DNA of 64,000 nt, taken from contig JBGPGO010000001.1 in the NCBI GenBank assembly GCA_041483895.1, positions 224,001 to 288,000 on the forward strand, given 5' to 3'. Under the pieces are notes generated by a model, which worked only from the letters and a program-made list of their open reading frames with translations, was not told where the DNA came from and searched no databases. The position numbers and the translations under genes are program-made. This document shows, piece by piece, positions 15,271 through 24,183 of the stretch. Position 1 is the stretch's first letter; each line of letters opens with the position of its first letter. The DNA comes from Fimbriimonadia bacterium. Lineage in GTDB: Bacteria; Armatimonadota; Fimbriimonadia; Fimbriimonadales; JABRVX01.

Positions 15271-16107
15271 TTACTTGCGTCGCCGGCGAAGGCCAACGAT
15301 GCCAAGCAGACCTGTCGCAACCGCAGCATAGGTGCTCGGCTCTGGAACGACCTCAATGCGCCAACCGTAATTGGCGATCGGCGCTCCGCCGAATGGAGAG
15401 TTCCGAAGCGCGCCGGCAGGATTCGCGGTTGTGAAGAATGAACCGGCCGCCGTGGTCAAGAAGTCGGTATCGGCGCTCGAGCCGACAGCCGGCGGACCGT
15501 ACATACCCTGTCCAAGCAGGTTCAACTGAGCCAGGGTCGCCATACCCGGGCCACTATTGTTGTTGTCGAATGTGATGCCGGCCCAGAATGAGCCCGACAC
15601 CAAGTTCATGTTAAAGGTCGGGAAAAGGTCAAAGAAAAACCCTGCAACAGTATTTGCAGCGACGGTTATCGGGTTGAAGGTGAATCCGACCGCCGCCGGA
15701 TCGTTATAGTACGTTCCGGGGGCACCGCCGGCTCCGTCGGAGAACCAGTAGCGGAGGCGCGGCCGAGCGGTTACAGCATCCGCATTGAGGTTGGCGAAGG
15801 TGAAGTACTGACGGGCGATTTTTTGTCCCGCATAACTGCTATGACCAAGGTTATCCGCCAAGAGTCTCGTGATTCCGTTGGTACCTTGGAGTACCGCACC
15901 GCCTTGTGTTGTCGCGAAGCCGCTGAAGGTGGCGAAGTTGTCATAGACGACAACGCCTGCAGCTTCCGGCGAGGGTACATTGACGGCAATGCCGATTTCA
16001 CCGCTCCAGAACTCATGAGCCACAACGCCTGTGTACTCGGTCTGGCTAAATGAAGGTAACGCAGCCGCAATGACCCCTACTGTGAATAGTGTTAGTCGAA
16101 TGCGCAT
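15271..16107 (-). CDS. PEP-CTERM protein
   Basis: Signal peptide; VVPEPSTYAAVATGLLGIVGLRRRRK tail; AAGGAG SD. Confidence 0.9.
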   Translation of the reverse strand: MRIRLTLFTVGVIAAALPSFSQTEYTGVVAHEFWSGEIGIAVNVPSPEAAGVVVYDNFATFSGFATTQGGAVLQGTNGITRLLADNLGHSSYAGQKIARQYFTFANLNADAVTARPRLRYWFSDGAGGAPGTYYNDPAAVGFTFNPITVAANTVAGFFFDLFPTFNMNLVSGSFWAGITFDNNNSGPGMATLAQLNLLGQGMYGPPAVGSSADTDFLTTAAGSFFTTANPAGALRNSPFGGAPIANYGWRIEVVPEPSTYAAVATGLLGIVGLRRRRK

Positions 16108-16213
16108 TCTTAGCTAACTCCTTTACATTTCGCTAAGGATTAGCCATCCAAATGCAACAGAAACTACAACGCATCCAACCAGGAAGGAAAACGCAGCTTC
16201 TGTATCCAACCGA

Positions 16214-16242
16214 ATTATAACGCGAAATACAAATTTCGGCAA
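16214..16242 (-). promoter_or_regulatory. Sigma70 promoter for 16107 gene
   Basis: TTGCCG-17 nt-TATAAT on - strand. Confidence 0.6.
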
Positions 16243-16288
16243 GGTTATTAGAGAATTCTAATATATGGTTTCGTGGATTCCCAACGAT

Positions 16289-16319
16289 CCCGTGCCCGTG
16301 TGGGGACTGCGGGCACGGG
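16289..16319. repeat. GC-rich inverted repeat
   Basis: cccgtgcccg-tgtggggactg-cgggcacggg. Confidence 0.5.
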
Positions 16320-16401
16320 GAAAGACATCGGGACGCTCCCCATGGAGCGTCCCGACTCTCGCAGCGTCCTCAGTTTTTGTGAAGACGTCTACTCAATGAC
16401 C

Positions 16402-17199
16402 TTACTTGCGTCGTCGGCGAAGGCCAACGATACCAAGCAGACCCGTGACAATCGCCGCATAGGTGCTCGGTTCTGGAGCTACCTCCAAAACGAGGTTGGA
16501 CTTGTCGTTCGGCGGCCCGAAAGCGAAGGCTTCGTTGTTTTCCAGGAAGGTGTTGCTGTTGGCATCGCGCCAATAGTAATTGGATCCCGTTCCTTTCTCT
16601 ACCCCGCCGACCGAATATCCCGGTCGACCGTCTACGTCCGTCGCCGTGTTCGTGGCATTCCAGATCTGCTCCTCATACGCAAAGAACGTATTGACGAAGT
16701 TGATCTTCGAGCTGGTAGTCACGGTGAAGATGTAGATAAAGCCCTGCGGAAGGTTACCGGTACCGAAGGCAAATCCGCCAATGAAGCCGCTCATGACGTT
16801 GGACAATAGCGGGGCCGAATAGTTCATCGTTCCCCAGAACAGGCAGTTCGGTACATACGCTCTGCCAACAGAGCCACCGGTAACGGCGACGATGCCGACC
16901 TTGAACCTATCCGCACCCACGGGAGCCGTGAGAAAAGCTTCGTTCAATCGGCGATAGGTCGTCGCAGCCGTGGAACTTACGTAAGGACCTTGCGTGTTGG
17001 AATAGTAAGCGCCCGGACCGACTGCTTGGGAGGAAACATCTCCAATCCAGCTCTCTTCCGGACCACCATAGGTCATCATATCGCCATTCACCGAGGTTAT
17101 CTGTCGGCGCGTAGCTGAGATGACCGTGGCATTAAGCAGGCTCTGACCAAAGCTTGCCGTTACGGCAGCAATCGCCAGAAAGGAATATAGAATGCGCAT
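16402..17199 (-). CDS. PEP-CTERM protein (APEP variant)
   Basis: Signal peptide; EVAPEPSTYAAIVTGLLGIVGLRRRRK tail. Confidence 0.9.
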   Translation of the reverse strand: MRILYSFLAIAAVTASFGQSLLNATVISATRRQITSVNGDMMTYGGPEESWIGDVSSQAVGPGAYYSNTQGPYVSSTAATTYRRLNEAFLTAPVGADRFKVGIVAVTGGSVGRAYVPNCLFWGTMNYSAPLLSNVMSGFIGGFAFGTGNLPQGFIYIFTVTTSSKINFVNTFFAYEEQIWNATNTATDVDGRPGYSVGGVEKGTGSNYYWRDANSNTFLENNEAFAFGPPNDKSNLVLEVAPEPSTYAAIVTGLLGIVGLRRRRK

Positions 17200-19678: not shown

Positions 19679-19748
19679 ACCGCTAACAGTCTCTGGTCTT
19701 GAACAATGGCACGGCGGTACACTTCTCTAAGAGATATCCGCTAAATTT

Positions 19749-19860
19749 CCCTCGACGATCGCATCGTCGAGGTGGGGTTTAGAGATATCCCTTCACAGTC
19801 GTATTGTGAAGGGTAGGCAGTGAAGTGTAATTCTCCCTTCACAATCCCTATTGTGAAGGG
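19749..19860. repeat. Three tandem ~25-bp palindromes of the CCCT..AGGG family
   Basis: ccctcgacgatcgcatcgtcgagg (19749), cccttcacagtcgtattgtgaaggg (19789), cccttcacaatccctattgtgaaggg (19835). Confidence 0.8.
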
Positions 19861-19881
19861 TCTGGATTGAAGGAGTGGCGT

Positions 19882-20586
19882 ATGTCGACCTCGATTACTT
19901 GGCTCGGCCATGCGGGGATAAAGCTGGTTAGCCCCGGTGGAAAAACGATCCTGATTGATCCCTGGTTTACGGGCAACCCAAAGGCCCCCTTCCCCATCGA
20001 ACAGCTCGACCGCTGCGATCTGCTGCTGATTACTCACGCCCACAGCGACCACGCCTCGGACGCGCCGGCCATCGCCAAGCGCTTCGGCTGCCCTCTGGTC
20101 ACGATCTTCGATTTCACCCAGATCCTGGCGAAGCAAGGGCTGGAAAACCTGATCGGCATCAACAAGGGTGGCTCGGTGGAGGTGCAAGGCATCAAGATAA
20201 CCGCCACTCAGGCTCTGCATAGCTCGACCTATACCGGTCCCGATGGCGAATCGGTCTACGCCGGGGAGCCAATGGGGTTTGTCCTCCGGCTGGAGGACGG
20301 AACGACGCTGTATCATGCCGGAGATACCGCTCTGTTTTGGGACATGAAGCTGATCGGGGAGATGCACCATCCCTCGCTCGCTTTCTTGCCGATCGGCGAC
20401 CATTTTACGATGGGTCCCATGGACGCGGCGTATGCGGCGAAGCTGCTGGAAGTGAAGAAGATCGTGCCGATCCACTGGGGCACCTTCCCACTTCTCATCG
20501 GCACGCCAGGGATGCTGAAACATCATCTGGAAGACACCAAGATCGACGTGATCGACCTGGCCCCCGGCGGGAGCTATACGCTGTAG
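19882..20586 (+). CDS. Metal-dependent hydrolase, metallo-beta-lactamase fold (UPF0173-like)
   Basis: ITWLGHA, IDPWFTGNP, THAHSDH, YHAGDT, PIHWGTFP; AAGGAG SD. Confidence 0.92.
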   Translation: MSTSITWLGHAGIKLVSPGGKTILIDPWFTGNPKAPFPIEQLDRCDLLLITHAHSDHASDAPAIAKRFGCPLVTIFDFTQILAKQGLENLIGINKGGSVEVQGIKITATQALHSSTYTGPDGESVYAGEPMGFVLRLEDGTTLYHAGDTALFWDMKLIGEMHHPSLAFLPIGDHFTMGPMDAAYAAKLLEVKKIVPIHWGTFPLLIGTPGMLKHHLEDTKIDVIDLAPGGSYTL

Positions 20587-20595
20587 CCGTTACAT

Positions 20596-20770
20596 CCCTC
20601 AAACAGGTCCTCCTGTTGAGGGTCTTTGGGACGCTCCCTGCCACCAAAACCCCCTCGGATGGTGTAAGATATCCACATGGCAGGCAACCGGCATTTCGGG
20701 AGATAAGTAAGATGAGTTCATCATGGCCGAAGCGGTCGGTACGGACCCTCAACAATATGATTGTTGAGGC
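20596..20770. repeat. Two further CCCT..AGGG family palindromes
   Basis: ccctcaaacaggtcctcctgttgaggg (20596-20622) and ccctcaacaatatgattgttgaggc (20746-20770). Confidence 0.75.
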
Positions 20771-20782
20771 ATTACATTCGAG

Positions 20783-21287
20783 GAGCAATCCGACCTTGCG
20801 GACCCAGGACAGCAAGCCGACGACCTGGACCTACGACGCTCTGGGGAGGCTGACCGGCGAGAAGTACGGCGGCACCCCGGCCTACAACCACACGTTTGCC
20901 TACGATTCTGTTGGCAACCGAACCATGTGGCACAAGGGCGGGACCGGCTTTAGCGAGAAGTACCATTTGAACACCTACGACAAGGCCGATCAGTTGACTC
21001 ACAGGACGGAAAAGGATGGGTTGCCGCAGACCGATTGGACCTACGTGCATGATGAGCGTGGTAACATGACAGAGTGGGGTCAAGGAGCAGGGTTACCGCT
21101 CAGCAACCCGACGACCTACGCGTATGATCTTGCGAACCGGATGATCAGCATCATTGCTTCCGGCGGTCTAAGGAGCACTTACACTTACGATGGTGACGGG
21201 TTGCGCCGCTCCAAGTGGGAACCGGCGGGGAGTCTGACCACCTTCGTCTGGGACGGCGATGATGTATTGCAAGAGAGAACGGACTAG
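20783..21287 (+). pseudogene. Rhs/YD-repeat fragment, 5'-truncated
   Basis: TTWTYDALGRL, YDSVGNR, YDKADQL, YDLANRM, YTYDGDGLRR, TTFVWDG; no plausible start or SD. Confidence 0.8.
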
Positions 21288-21289
21288 TC

Positions 21290-21442
21290 ATGGGAGTCGT
21301 CAACTACAGCTACGGCAACGGGCAGTTGGTTTCGGAGACGAGAGCAGGCGTCCATTCCGCCTACTGGTTCGATGCCCTGGGTAACACCACCAAGCTGATC
21401 GACACAACGAGCCTCACCGTTACCGACAAGTTGAATCCCTAA
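21290..21442 (+). pseudogene. Start of Rhs-associated core ORF, 3'-truncated (50 aa)
   Basis: My translation: MGVVNYSYGNGQLVSETRAGVHSAYWFDALGNTTKLIDTTSLTVTDKLNP*. Has the YxxDALG motif but no PYG/DPxG core and no toxin tip. Confidence 0.7.
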
Positions 21443-21498
21443 ACAATCACATTGTTTAGGGGCTGGTTTTGTATCCCTCCGCACGACGTGCGGAGGGA
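21437..21498. repeat. CCCT..AGGG family palindromes (copies 6 and 7)
   Basis: ccctaaacaatcacattgtttaggg (21437-21461, perfect 11-bp arms); tccctccgcacgacgtgcggaggga (21474-21498, may be the terminator of 21512-21913). Confidence 0.75.
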
Positions 21499-21511: not shown

Positions 21512-21913
21512 CTACTTCCGCCTACCCGTCGGGCCGACCTGCTCCGGGAGGAGGTGCATGGCATCGATGTTCTTCGCCAACTGATCGCGCCACGATTTTG
21601 CGACCTTGTCCACCGTCGTCTTCGCCAGTTTCGCGTCTGCGACAGTCGCCACCGCGAATAGGTGACCCTTGACATAGATCGACCGATCCGCGCCGGTCTT
21701 CTTGATCACCACCTCCGCCGGTGTGATACTCGTCTCACCCAAGATATCGATCATCCTGCTGTCGATCTCGGCCACGCGCTGCGCCGGGGTCTTCCCCGCC
21801 GCAGAAGCCGTAATATAGAAAATCGTCCTACCCGCAAATGTGACAGGCTCGGCAAGCGCCGGCACGGTGAGCGCCACCACCGCTATCGCAATCATCCATC
21901 GCAAAACCTTCAT
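21512..21913 (-). CDS. Secreted hypothetical protein
   Basis: Signal peptide MKVLRWMIAIAVVALTVPALA; AGGAGG SD. Confidence 0.75.
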   Translation of the reverse strand: MKVLRWMIAIAVVALTVPALAEPVTFAGRTIFYITASAAGKTPAQRVAEIDSRMIDILGETSITPAEVVIKKTGADRSIYVKGHLFAVATVADAKLAKTTVDKVAKSWRDQLAKNIDAMHLLPEQVGPTGRRK

Positions 21914-23606: not shown

Positions 23607-23945
23607 CTATGGATGCGGCTGGTGCCAATCGATAACGGAGAACTTTCCGATTTGGAAGTCGTGGATGCGCTCTTCTATGGCGAGAATGCACGCTTGGTAA
23701 TCCTCCAAAGTATCAATAACTGCTGCTGGTACAACAACCGCAATCTTGAGATGCGCGATGGACGTCTGAAACGGCAGATTAGCATCAACGGTAAAAATCA
23801 GGTCGAATTCCTCGCTTGCTCGTTCTAACAGCTCACCGTTATCGATTCCCAACCACTTCATATCTCGGACATGGCGAACGAAGTGCTCATCTGAAAAGAA
23901 GCGCTTGCAACGTCGATCGACGCATTCATCAAGGAGGATTTTCAT
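23607..23945 (-). CDS. PIN-like toxin (DUF5615 family)
   Basis: MKILLDECV..HVRDMKWLGIDNGELL..IFTVDANL..Q; downstream of a DUF433 gene. Confidence 0.85.
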   Translation of the reverse strand: MKILLDECVDRRCKRFFSDEHFVRHVRDMKWLGIDNGELLERASEEFDLIFTVDANLPFQTSIAHLKIAVVVPAAVIDTLEDYQACILAIEERIHDFQIGKFSVIDWHQPHP

Positions 23946-23952
23946 CCGAAGA

Positions 23953-24183
23953 CTAGGCTGACTTCGCCTGGAGAGTTTCATGTTCAAGCGATTCGAGCGT
24001 GTGGGTCAGGACGGCAACAGCTTGCTCCCTCGAAACGCTTGGAAATCCGTCCAGAAAGTAATCGATATCGTGTCCGTGCTCCAAGTAGGAAAATAGAATT
24101 CGGACGGGTACGCGCGTCCCGGCGAAACATAGCGCCCCGCTCATTATTTTCGGATTCCTTCGGATTGCTTCATCGATCTTCAT
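23953..24183 (-). CDS. DUF433 family antitoxin
   Basis: NPKIMSGALCFAGTRVPV..FLDGFPSVSREQ. Confidence 0.9.
   Translation of the reverse strand: MKIDEAIRRNPKIMSGALCFAGTRVPVRILFSYLEHGHDIDYFLDGFPSVSREQAVAVLTHTLESLEHETLQAKSA

What the first reader, a model, noticed from the sequence alone, without database searches (positions are those of the whole stretch)
19749..21498. Covarying ~25-bp palindrome family marking cassette-like boundaries next to infB
Seen: six clear copies plus one variant in 1.75 kb, and I noticed none elsewhere in the window. They are ccct-cg-ac-gat-cgc-atc-gt-cg-agg (19749), ccct-tc-ac-agt-cgt-att-gt-ga-aggg (19789), ccct-tc-ac-aat-ccct-att-gt-ga-aggg (19835), ccct-caa-ac-agg-tcct-cct-gt-tg-aggg (20596), ccct-ca-ac-aat-atg-att-gt-tg-agg (20746), ccct-aa-ac-aat-cac-att-gt-tt-aggg (21437) and a shorter variant (21474). 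Variable positions change in compensatory pairs, so symmetry is conserved rather than sequence. The first three form a mini-array with 16- and 21-nt spacers. Two others lie ~12 nt before and ~6 nt after the break points of the Rhs fragment, and the hydrolase gene is also bracketed. Inference: structure-specific recombination or insertion sites (attC/REP-like logic) that capture or delete DNA segments using an enzyme encoded elsewhere; the mini-array could be empty sites.
Basis: partly seen in the sequence, partly recalled or inferred. Interest (0 to 1): 0.85.

Follow-up and report, generated by a model that had tools for sequence, protein, structure and literature searches.

The report
Transposase-linked hairpins that join foreign DNA
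The seven hairpins belong to a family of about 230 short repeats spread over this bacterium's genome, which also flank four REP-associated transposase (RAYT) genes; some copies sit exactly where a gene breaks off or where foreign-looking genes begin, so this transposase likely moves small hairpin-bounded cassettes and may splice neighbouring DNA onto them.

Summary
Observation confirmed. The seven hairpins are not local: 139 strict and 236 relaxed copies genome-wide, 0-2 in shuffles. They are REPs with an unusual 'NNAT' foot in place of GTAG. They flank four RAYT (HUH/Y1) genes in this genome and 18 of 30 related RAYT loci examined, with inner stems that change in compensating pairs. Window 20590-20776 is an internally deleted RAYT cassette, one of nine. 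The Rhs fragment breaks 4-6 nt from the stem, like four other paralog-defined junctions. One mini-cassette was copied 174 kb with about 100 nt of host gene attached. DNA downstream of the cassettes is lower in GC than DNA upstream in 11 of 12 cases. Not supported: attC membership, 'empty sites', the hydrolase as a cassette. The common a/b subtypes (the mini-array) show no link to foreign DNA, relatives lack the polarity, and eight runs show no large rearrangement. The scan noted similar doublet-plus-gene rows earlier in this genome. Verdict: new variant of REP/RAYT with evidence of cassette mobility; systematic gene capture is plausible but unproven.

The parts
19743..19772 (+). REP copy 1 (divergent subtype, degenerate foot; stem-loop 19749-19772)
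19783..19813 (+). REP copy 2, subtype a (AT foot 19787-19788; stem-loop 19789-19813)
19829..19860 (+). REP copy 3, subtype b (TCT foot; stem-loop 19835-19860). Copies 1-3 form a tandem cluster; one contig in run X5 (depth 2.3) skips 47 nt between copies 2 and 3
19882..20586 (+). Metal-dependent hydrolase (MBL fold), a resident host gene that is the left neighbour of the cassette, not cargo
   Evidence: NF001911 255 bits, cut-off 144; orthologs 58-59% in G001 and G002, not found with this query in 3 same-order genomes
20590..20776 (+). Internally deleted RAYT cassette (non-autonomous REP doublet, feet pointing outward), a hybrid of a c-type left end and a d-type right end
   Evidence: 78% identity over 108 nt to the 5' end of the intact C27 cassette; alignment; nine promoter-bearing remnants genome-wide
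20590..20622 (+). REP copy 4, subtype c with bulge; left end of the cassette; T at -6 is 20590, 3 nt after the hydrolase stop codon
20660..20697 (+). Conserved upstream motif of the RAYT gene (likely promoter) plus ATG 20677 and the first seven RAYT-like codons
   Evidence: promoter function is inferred, the sigma-70 scan did not list it
20746..20776 (-). REP copy 5, subtype d; right end of the cassette, foot faces the Rhs fragment (T at -6 is 20776)
20777..21430 (+). Rhs/YD-repeat fragment truncated at both ends, with no core or toxin domain; passenger between two inward-facing d-type feet
   Evidence: PF05593; 85-86% identical paralogs at C1:483k, C12:66k, C21:31k all continue past 21432
21431..21461 (+). 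REP copy 6, subtype d; foot joined to the Rhs break (T at -6 is 21431)
21469..21498 (+). REP copy 7, shorter-stem variant with AT foot, tandem to copy 6

Best explanation
These hairpins are a REP repeat family with an NNAT foot that flanks RAYT transposase genes encoded elsewhere in the genome; the RAYT likely binds one strand of the hairpin, is predicted to cut before a T about 6 nt upstream of the stem, and likely joins that end to other DNA, thereby moving hairpin-bounded cassettes and creating the Rhs junction in this window. Shown: repeat family, polarity, association with one RAYT group, deleted RAYT cassettes, sharp junctions at the foot, one cassette copied with host flank. Inferred: single-strand cleavage and strand transfer by this RAYT, by analogy with TnpA-REP and IS608. 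The window reads as: a tandem cluster of ordinary dispersed REPs (copies 1-3), a resident hydrolase gene, a mini-cassette inserted 3 nt after its stop, a dead Rhs passenger joined at the cassette's right foot and closed by the foot of copy 6.
For: Four of the six Y1 genes found with PF01797 (C5, C6, C21, C27) are flanked by this family, feet outward; the other two are flanked by GTAG repeats. C27 and C5 proteins pass NF047646 'REP-associated tyrosine transposase' (96 and 93 bits, cut-off 80); best solved match by profile and by fold is E. coli TnpA-REP 4er8; H63, H65, Y136 conserved. 18 of 30 loci of this RAYT group carry the hairpin (16 with the AT foot) against 1 unrelated hairpin in 20 more distant Y1 loci, with at least eight different fully paired inner stems. 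Three RAYT cassettes 83-89% identical lie in unrelated neighbourhoods, plus nine promoter-bearing remnants. T at -6 in 25 of 33 c-type and 19 of 25 d-type copies (p about 1e-9 and 1e-7). Of 62 free c/d feet tested, five have a low-copy paralog that runs on without a REP, and homology stops 4, 5, 5, 5 and 6 nt from the stem; a sixth stops at 7. The C1:311k mini is about 96% identical to the C1:484k mini and carries about 100 nt of the 3' end of the neighbouring dehydrogenase gene; the two diverge 7 nt beyond the right stem. After purA a 1-kb cassette-gene-cassette insert interrupts gene order conserved in G001 and G002. Downstream flank lower in GC than upstream in 11 of 12 cassettes (0.528 vs 0.603, Wilcoxon p 0.003); downstream ORF co-oriented in 11 of 12 by an automatic rule vs 55 of 113 for type-a feet.
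Against: No activity was tested. 12 of 30 loci of the RAYT group have no such hairpin within about 500 nt. Subtypes a, b, e (158 of 236 copies) show no shift in flank composition and no T at -6; no RAYT matching subtypes b, d or e was found in the 95%-complete assembly. The GC polarity is absent around RAYT genes of relatives (15 of 25, p 0.26). Only 1 of 4 host-gene loci tested had synteny that could show an insertion. No joint that removes the hydrolase, the mini-cassette or the Rhs piece in 8 of 23 listed runs laid, all low-depth contigs. G022, G035 and G011 have 16-21 pattern hits without a RAYT match to this query. The window's own passenger is not low in GC (0.58).
Confidence: 0.8

Rival explanations
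1. RAYT/REP as an integron-like accretion platform: foreign, promoter-less genes are repeatedly joined behind the right foot of a cassette and expressed from its inner promoter, building arrays of doublet + gene.
For: 10 of 11 segments of 0.3-2.5 kb between inward-facing feet have c/d (or unassigned) copies on at least one side, median GC 0.51 vs genome 0.58; arrays at C21 (RAYT-genes-mini-gene-REP), C13, C2, C25 (five doublets, four genes starting at or near a foot); three of six close paralogs of one PEP-CTERM family and four Rhs modules lie behind a right foot. PMC3333891 proposed that REP units could sequester flanking genes.
Against: The one proven transduction carried upstream host DNA, not a downstream passenger. 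The PEP-CTERM passengers have no REP at their far end. No excised circle or empty allele seen. No polarity in relatives. Promoter activity untested.
Confidence: 0.35
2. Ordinary REP spread with bias: doublets insert at AT-rich junctions in front of accessory genes that were already there and survive where harmless or where their promoter helps; later deletions from the foot trim the neighbours.
For: 205 of 236 copies lie outside called genes, as for known REPs; element copies (83-96% identical) are younger than the PEP-CTERM paralogs (68-79%); c/d copies cluster locally (32 of 70 within 3 kb of another).
Against: Does not by itself explain why the foreign side is the downstream side in 11 of 12, nor why left and right flanks are never the two halves of one parental sequence in the cases with a paralog.
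Confidence: 0.45
3. attC-like sites for a tyrosine recombinase, with the mini-array as empty sites.
For: Compensatory stems; single genes bracketed; four tyrosine-recombinase-like loci exist in the genome.
Against: 25-nt hairpins, mostly without bulges; none of those loci reaches the integron-integrase cut-off (best 80 of 265 bits); association is with RAYT genes in many genomes; breaks lie outside the stem, not inside a core site.
Confidence: 0.03
4. Terminators or operators of the host, unrelated to mobility.
For: Enriched between convergent genes (56 of 203 vs 302 of 1945 gaps); copy 6 scores as terminator-like.
Against: Only 1 of 7 has a T-run, no more than shuffles give; median 82 nt from a stop codon; both orientations relative to transcription (45 vs 62); in-frame copies inside genes; tie to RAYT. 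A secondary role in mRNA stability remains open.
Confidence: 0.04

Closest known systems
REP/BIME/REPIN with RAYT (TnpA-REP); REPtrons (PMC2817692, PMC3333891, PMC8266576: passages read; PMC5581495: part 2 of the text and passages)
   Same: More than 100 short, mostly extragenic, polar hairpins; singles, doublets and clusters; RAYT gene flanked by inverted copies; each RAYT with its own stem variant; compensatory changes; short perfect stems like group 3 REPs.
   Different: Foot is NNAT (TCT in one subtype), not GT(A/G)G. [quoted passage not shown] Inferred cut N|T at a fixed 6 nt rather than C|T at varied distances. Flank capture, only proposed in PMC3333891, is visible here once.
TnpA-Y1 subclass 2.6 (Bertels group 5) with atypical hairpins (PMC6006769: sections 12 and 15; Table S1 parts 1 and 6 of 7 read and whole file searched)
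   Same: Motifs H-u-H, WQ, YIHxNP, SS tail; about 180-200 aa; extra segment before the W motif; non-GTAG hairpins.
   Different: No hairpin of this type among the 449 rows of Table S1 by five motif searches; that subclass is described mostly from Bacteroidetes; the authors' profiles could not be run.
IS200/IS605 (IS608, ISDra2) and their non-autonomous derivatives; IS91/ISCR rolling-circle elements (flank capture noted in PMC3333891; ori/ter details recalled, not from a call)
   Same: HUH/Y1 chemistry on hairpin-bearing ssDNA; deleted derivatives; one sharp end and one end that can carry neighbouring DNA.
   Different: Ends are inverted copies of one hairpin; protein scores as RAYT, below the IS200 cut-off (33-46 of 55 bits); no tnpB seen next to the genes; hairpins are dispersed in hundreds.
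Integron attC cassettes (defining features recalled; PMC2727003 seen only as a search listing)
   Same: Structure-based single-strand recognition; rows of single genes behind a site, possibly read from an upstream promoter.
   Different: Enzyme is HUH, not IntI; site is 25 nt; junction lies outside the stem.

Membership tests
REP/RAYT system | Short palindromes (20-50 nt) in high copy number, mostly extragenic | tested here: met
   236 copies, 205 outside called genes (own gene caller, which misses low-GC genes)
REP/RAYT system | RAYT gene flanked by inverted copies of the same repeat | tested here: met
   C5, C6, C21, C27; 18 of 30 loci of the group
REP/RAYT system | Protein is a RAYT (HuH, Y...NP), distinct from IS200 TnpA | tested here: met
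   NF047646 over cut-off, NF033573 under cut-off
REP/RAYT system (canonical) | 5' GT(A/G)G tetranucleotide foot | tested here: not met
   Foot is NNAT or NTCT; atypical feet are accepted for subclasses 2.6 and 3 in PMC6006769
REP/RAYT system | Strand-specific binding, cleavage and strand transfer by the cognate RAYT | not testable with these tools
   Only indirect: junctions at -4 to -7 and conserved T at -6
TnpA-Y1 subclass 2.6 | Subclass motifs and profile membership | tested here: inconclusive
   Consensus motifs match Table 1 of PMC6006769 by eye; no subclass profile available; tree has no named reference rows
IS200/IS605 insertion sequence | TnpA-IS200 (Y...Q), distinct left and right hairpins, many near-identical copies | tested here: not met
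   Y...NP motif, inverted identical ends, copies 83-89% identical
Integron attC site | Integron integrase in the genome | tested here: not met
   TIGR02249 best 80 bits, cut-off 265, in a 95%-complete assembly
Integron attC site | Long imperfect hairpin with R and L boxes and extrahelical bases (recalled) | tested here: not met
   25-27 nt near-perfect hairpins
Intrinsic terminator | Hairpin followed by a T-run, oriented with transcription | tested here: not met
   1 of 7 in the window, at chance level; both orientations genome-wide
Known structured RNA family | Rfam match at gathering score | tested here: not met
   Single match, 19.5 of 58.6 bits, E 0.19

The most novel reading that the evidence does not exclude
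An undomesticated RAYT: it transposes its own cassette and uses REP feet as attachment points to build integron-like rows of captured accessory genes (Rhs modules, PEP-CTERM and other secreted proteins), each read from the promoter left in the mini-cassette. This would be a gene-capture system run by an HUH enzyme instead of a tyrosine recombinase.
Probability: 0.3. Interest if true: 0.85.

Novelty: new variant of a known kind. Interest (0 to 1): 0.58.

Why it matters
How REPs spread, and what RAYTs do for their hosts, are open questions; the papers read describe RAYTs as single-copy, immobile and acting on GTAG-footed hairpins. This genome offers natural junctions that predict the cut position (a T 6 nt upstream of the stem), several related RAYT cassettes at unrelated loci, and one clear case of a cassette copied with host DNA attached. 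That makes the dissemination mechanism directly testable in vitro. If passengers are captured systematically, RAYT/REP would be a route for acquiring and expressing accessory genes.

Tried and rejected
Synteny after infB: not conserved in any of 5 relatives, so uninformative. Synteny at four cassette loci: informative only at purA. Rhs enrichment near any family copy: 6 of 14 segments within 1.5 kb vs 2.1 expected (4 of 300 simulations), but one of the six (C19) is an artefact of a query overlapping a REP, leaving 5 of 13: weak. Composition of genes next to REPs with my own gene caller showed no alien signal, but that caller misses low-GC genes, so it was replaced by window-based tests. Polarity in relatives: not found. 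Homolog search with the Rhs piece among longer proteins gave only 28-49% matches, so the left break could not be fixed. Public runs: no RNA holder listed; no large joints in 8 runs laid. IS110 as user of these sites: one IS110 gene in the genome, about 0.9 kb from a b-type copy, not followed further. Names and taxa of the closest RAYT proteins could not be looked up, so range rests on genome searches: 12 of 401 genomes of the phylum at E<=1e-40 with only 8 candidates scored per genome, 10 in this order. Literature: four searches listed no paper on this REP type or on REPs in Armatimonadota (0 occurrences of 'armatimonad' in the 20 listed of 68); subscription journals and bioRxiv supplements were not visible, and supplements of PMC3733652 (REPtron lists) were not opened.

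Full report
Observation. The seven palindromes are present as described and fold as 10-11 bp DNA hairpins far better than shuffles. None other lies in the window, but the genome (3.95 Mb, 95% complete) has 139 strict matches with complementary variable positions at the 9-10 nt inner gap, against none at those gaps in three shuffles, and 236 relaxed copies in 162 clusters: subtypes a 116, b 34, c 45, d 25, e 8, other 8. 205 lie outside called genes. Each has a conserved AT (TCT in b) 5' of the stem on one strand only.

The enzyme. PF01797 finds six Y1 genes. Four are flanked by this family with feet outward: C5 by subtype a; C6, C21 and C27 by subtype c. The other two are flanked by GTAG repeats. 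C27 and C5 pass the NCBIfam RAYT model and fail IS200. Profile and predicted fold (pLDDT 89) both give E. coli TnpA-REP as best solved match. In related genomes the same RAYT group carries the same kind of hairpin at 18 of 30 loci examined, 16 with the AT foot, with at least eight different fully paired inner stems; 20 more distant Y1 loci have none but one unrelated hairpin. The group was found in 12 of 401 genomes of the phylum, mainly this order; one relative's record is titled Fimbriimonadales, so the host is likely an Armatimonadota bacterium (inference; runs holding the locus are sediment metagenomes). Its motifs resemble subclass 2.6 of PMC6006769, whose REP table does not list this hairpin.

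Anatomy of the window. Copies 1-3 follow infB as a tandem cluster of the commonest subtypes. The hydrolase is a resident gene. 20590-20776 begins 3 nt after its stop and is a RAYT cassette with the middle deleted: REP, the conserved upstream motif, ATG and seven RAYT-like codons, then a d-type REP on the minus strand. Nine such promoter-bearing remnants exist. The Rhs piece lies between two d-type feet that face it. Three paralogs 85-86% identical all continue past the point where this copy turns into the foot of copy 6. Contigs from public runs bridge these junctions.

Where the joins fall. Of 62 free c/d feet, five have a low-copy paralog that runs on without a REP; homology stops 4-6 nt from the stem in all five, and at 7 in a sixth. 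T at -6 is conserved in c (25 of 33) and d (19 of 25) but not in a (36 of 116) or b (13 of 34). I infer a cut before that T. In the guide model tested for a group 3 RAYT (PMC8266576, passages) the last two foot bases select the cut dinucleotide; an AT foot would select a T at the cut, which fits, but this is inference.

Mobility. Three c-type RAYT cassettes are 83-89% identical, mosaic, and in unrelated neighbourhoods. The minis at C1:311k and C1:484k are about 96% identical; the first carries about 100 nt of the 3' end of the dehydrogenase gene that precedes the second, and they diverge 7 nt past the right stem. After purA, a 1-kb block of mini, low-GC gene and second doublet interrupts gene order kept in G001 and G002. 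PMC8266576 states there is no evidence of tnpA-REP mobility, and PMC3333891 proposes but does not show capture of flanking genes, so these cases go beyond what I read.

Link to foreign DNA. For the 12 cassettes defined by RAYT gene or promoter remnant, the downstream 600 nt are lower in GC than the upstream 600 nt in 11 (medians 0.528 and 0.603, p 0.003). Upstream neighbours are mostly housekeeping genes (purA, fumC, a Zn dehydrogenase, an ABC permease, ribBA); downstream neighbours are Rhs modules, PEP-CTERM or other secreted proteins without Pfam match, co-oriented in 11 of 12. Foot-side flanks of c and d copies are compositionally atypical (hexamer score p 0.003 and 2e-6); a, b, e are not. 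Against generality: no polarity around RAYT genes in relatives (15 of 25), Rhs proximity is weak, no large rearranged allele in 8 runs, and the 12 cassettes are not fully independent (two are recent copies; two lie in one array).

Mechanism. Most likely (0.8) a REP family served by this RAYT, with c/d doublets as recently mobile, non-autonomous cassettes whose feet are join points. Within that, whether passengers were captured (0.35) or cassettes landed in front of resident accessory genes and trimmed them (0.45) is open. attC and terminator readings are rejected.

Earlier notes of the scan describe, in this genome, a row of genes behind REP doublets and hairpins inside dnaE2. I found a five-doublet row on C25 and seven copies of this family inside one 1500-codon ORF on C8; I could not confirm that these are the same loci.

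Verdict. Real feature; new variant of REP/RAYT (AT foot, mobile cassette, one visible flank transduction). Interest 0.58; the capture-platform reading has probability 0.3 and would merit 0.85.

Noticed in passing
window 21280-21296; G000 C1:482964, C12:66369, C21:31149: All four copies of this Rhs subfamily have a stop codon followed 2 nt later by an ATG that restarts the Rhs body in another frame; the orphan modules at C12 and C21 begin at that ATG. Old break copied around, a built-in restart for orphan modules, or a recoding site.
   Followed up: partly
G000 C25:26800-30420: Five ~150-nt d-type doublets in a row separated by four single genes, three of which start within about 10 nt of a doublet end.
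   Followed up: partly
G000 C8:64748-69256: Seven copies of the family lie inside one open frame of about 1500 codons; 31 of 236 copies are intragenic.
   Followed up: no
G000 C20:36303, C3:72185, C6:123218, C12:73442: Four more RAYT-like genes with other repeat families (GTAG-footed for C20 and C3); a C-rich hairpin family of about 50 copies also came up. The genome is unusually rich in repeat families.
   Followed up: no
window 19801-19849, run X5: One contig (depth 2.3) skips 47 nt, merging REP copies 2 and 3; three small differences near 19704-19748 occur in the same run.
   Followed up: no
window 21613-21791: In runs X1-X4 contigs share this 180-nt part of the small minus-strand gene but run on into other sequence on both sides; no second copy in G000.
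   Followed up: partly
window 15271-17199 and genome-wide: Two PEP-CTERM genes upstream of the infB operon; about 91 PEP-CTERM-like C-termini in the genome.
   Followed up: no
window 23607-24183: DUF433/DUF5615 pair (toxin-antitoxin-like) next to radA; infB is not followed by rbfA here.
   Followed up: no
window 20757-21287: The loop of REP copy 5 supplies an in-frame ATG to the truncated Rhs piece, giving a 176-codon frame downstream of the cassette's likely promoter.
   Followed up: no
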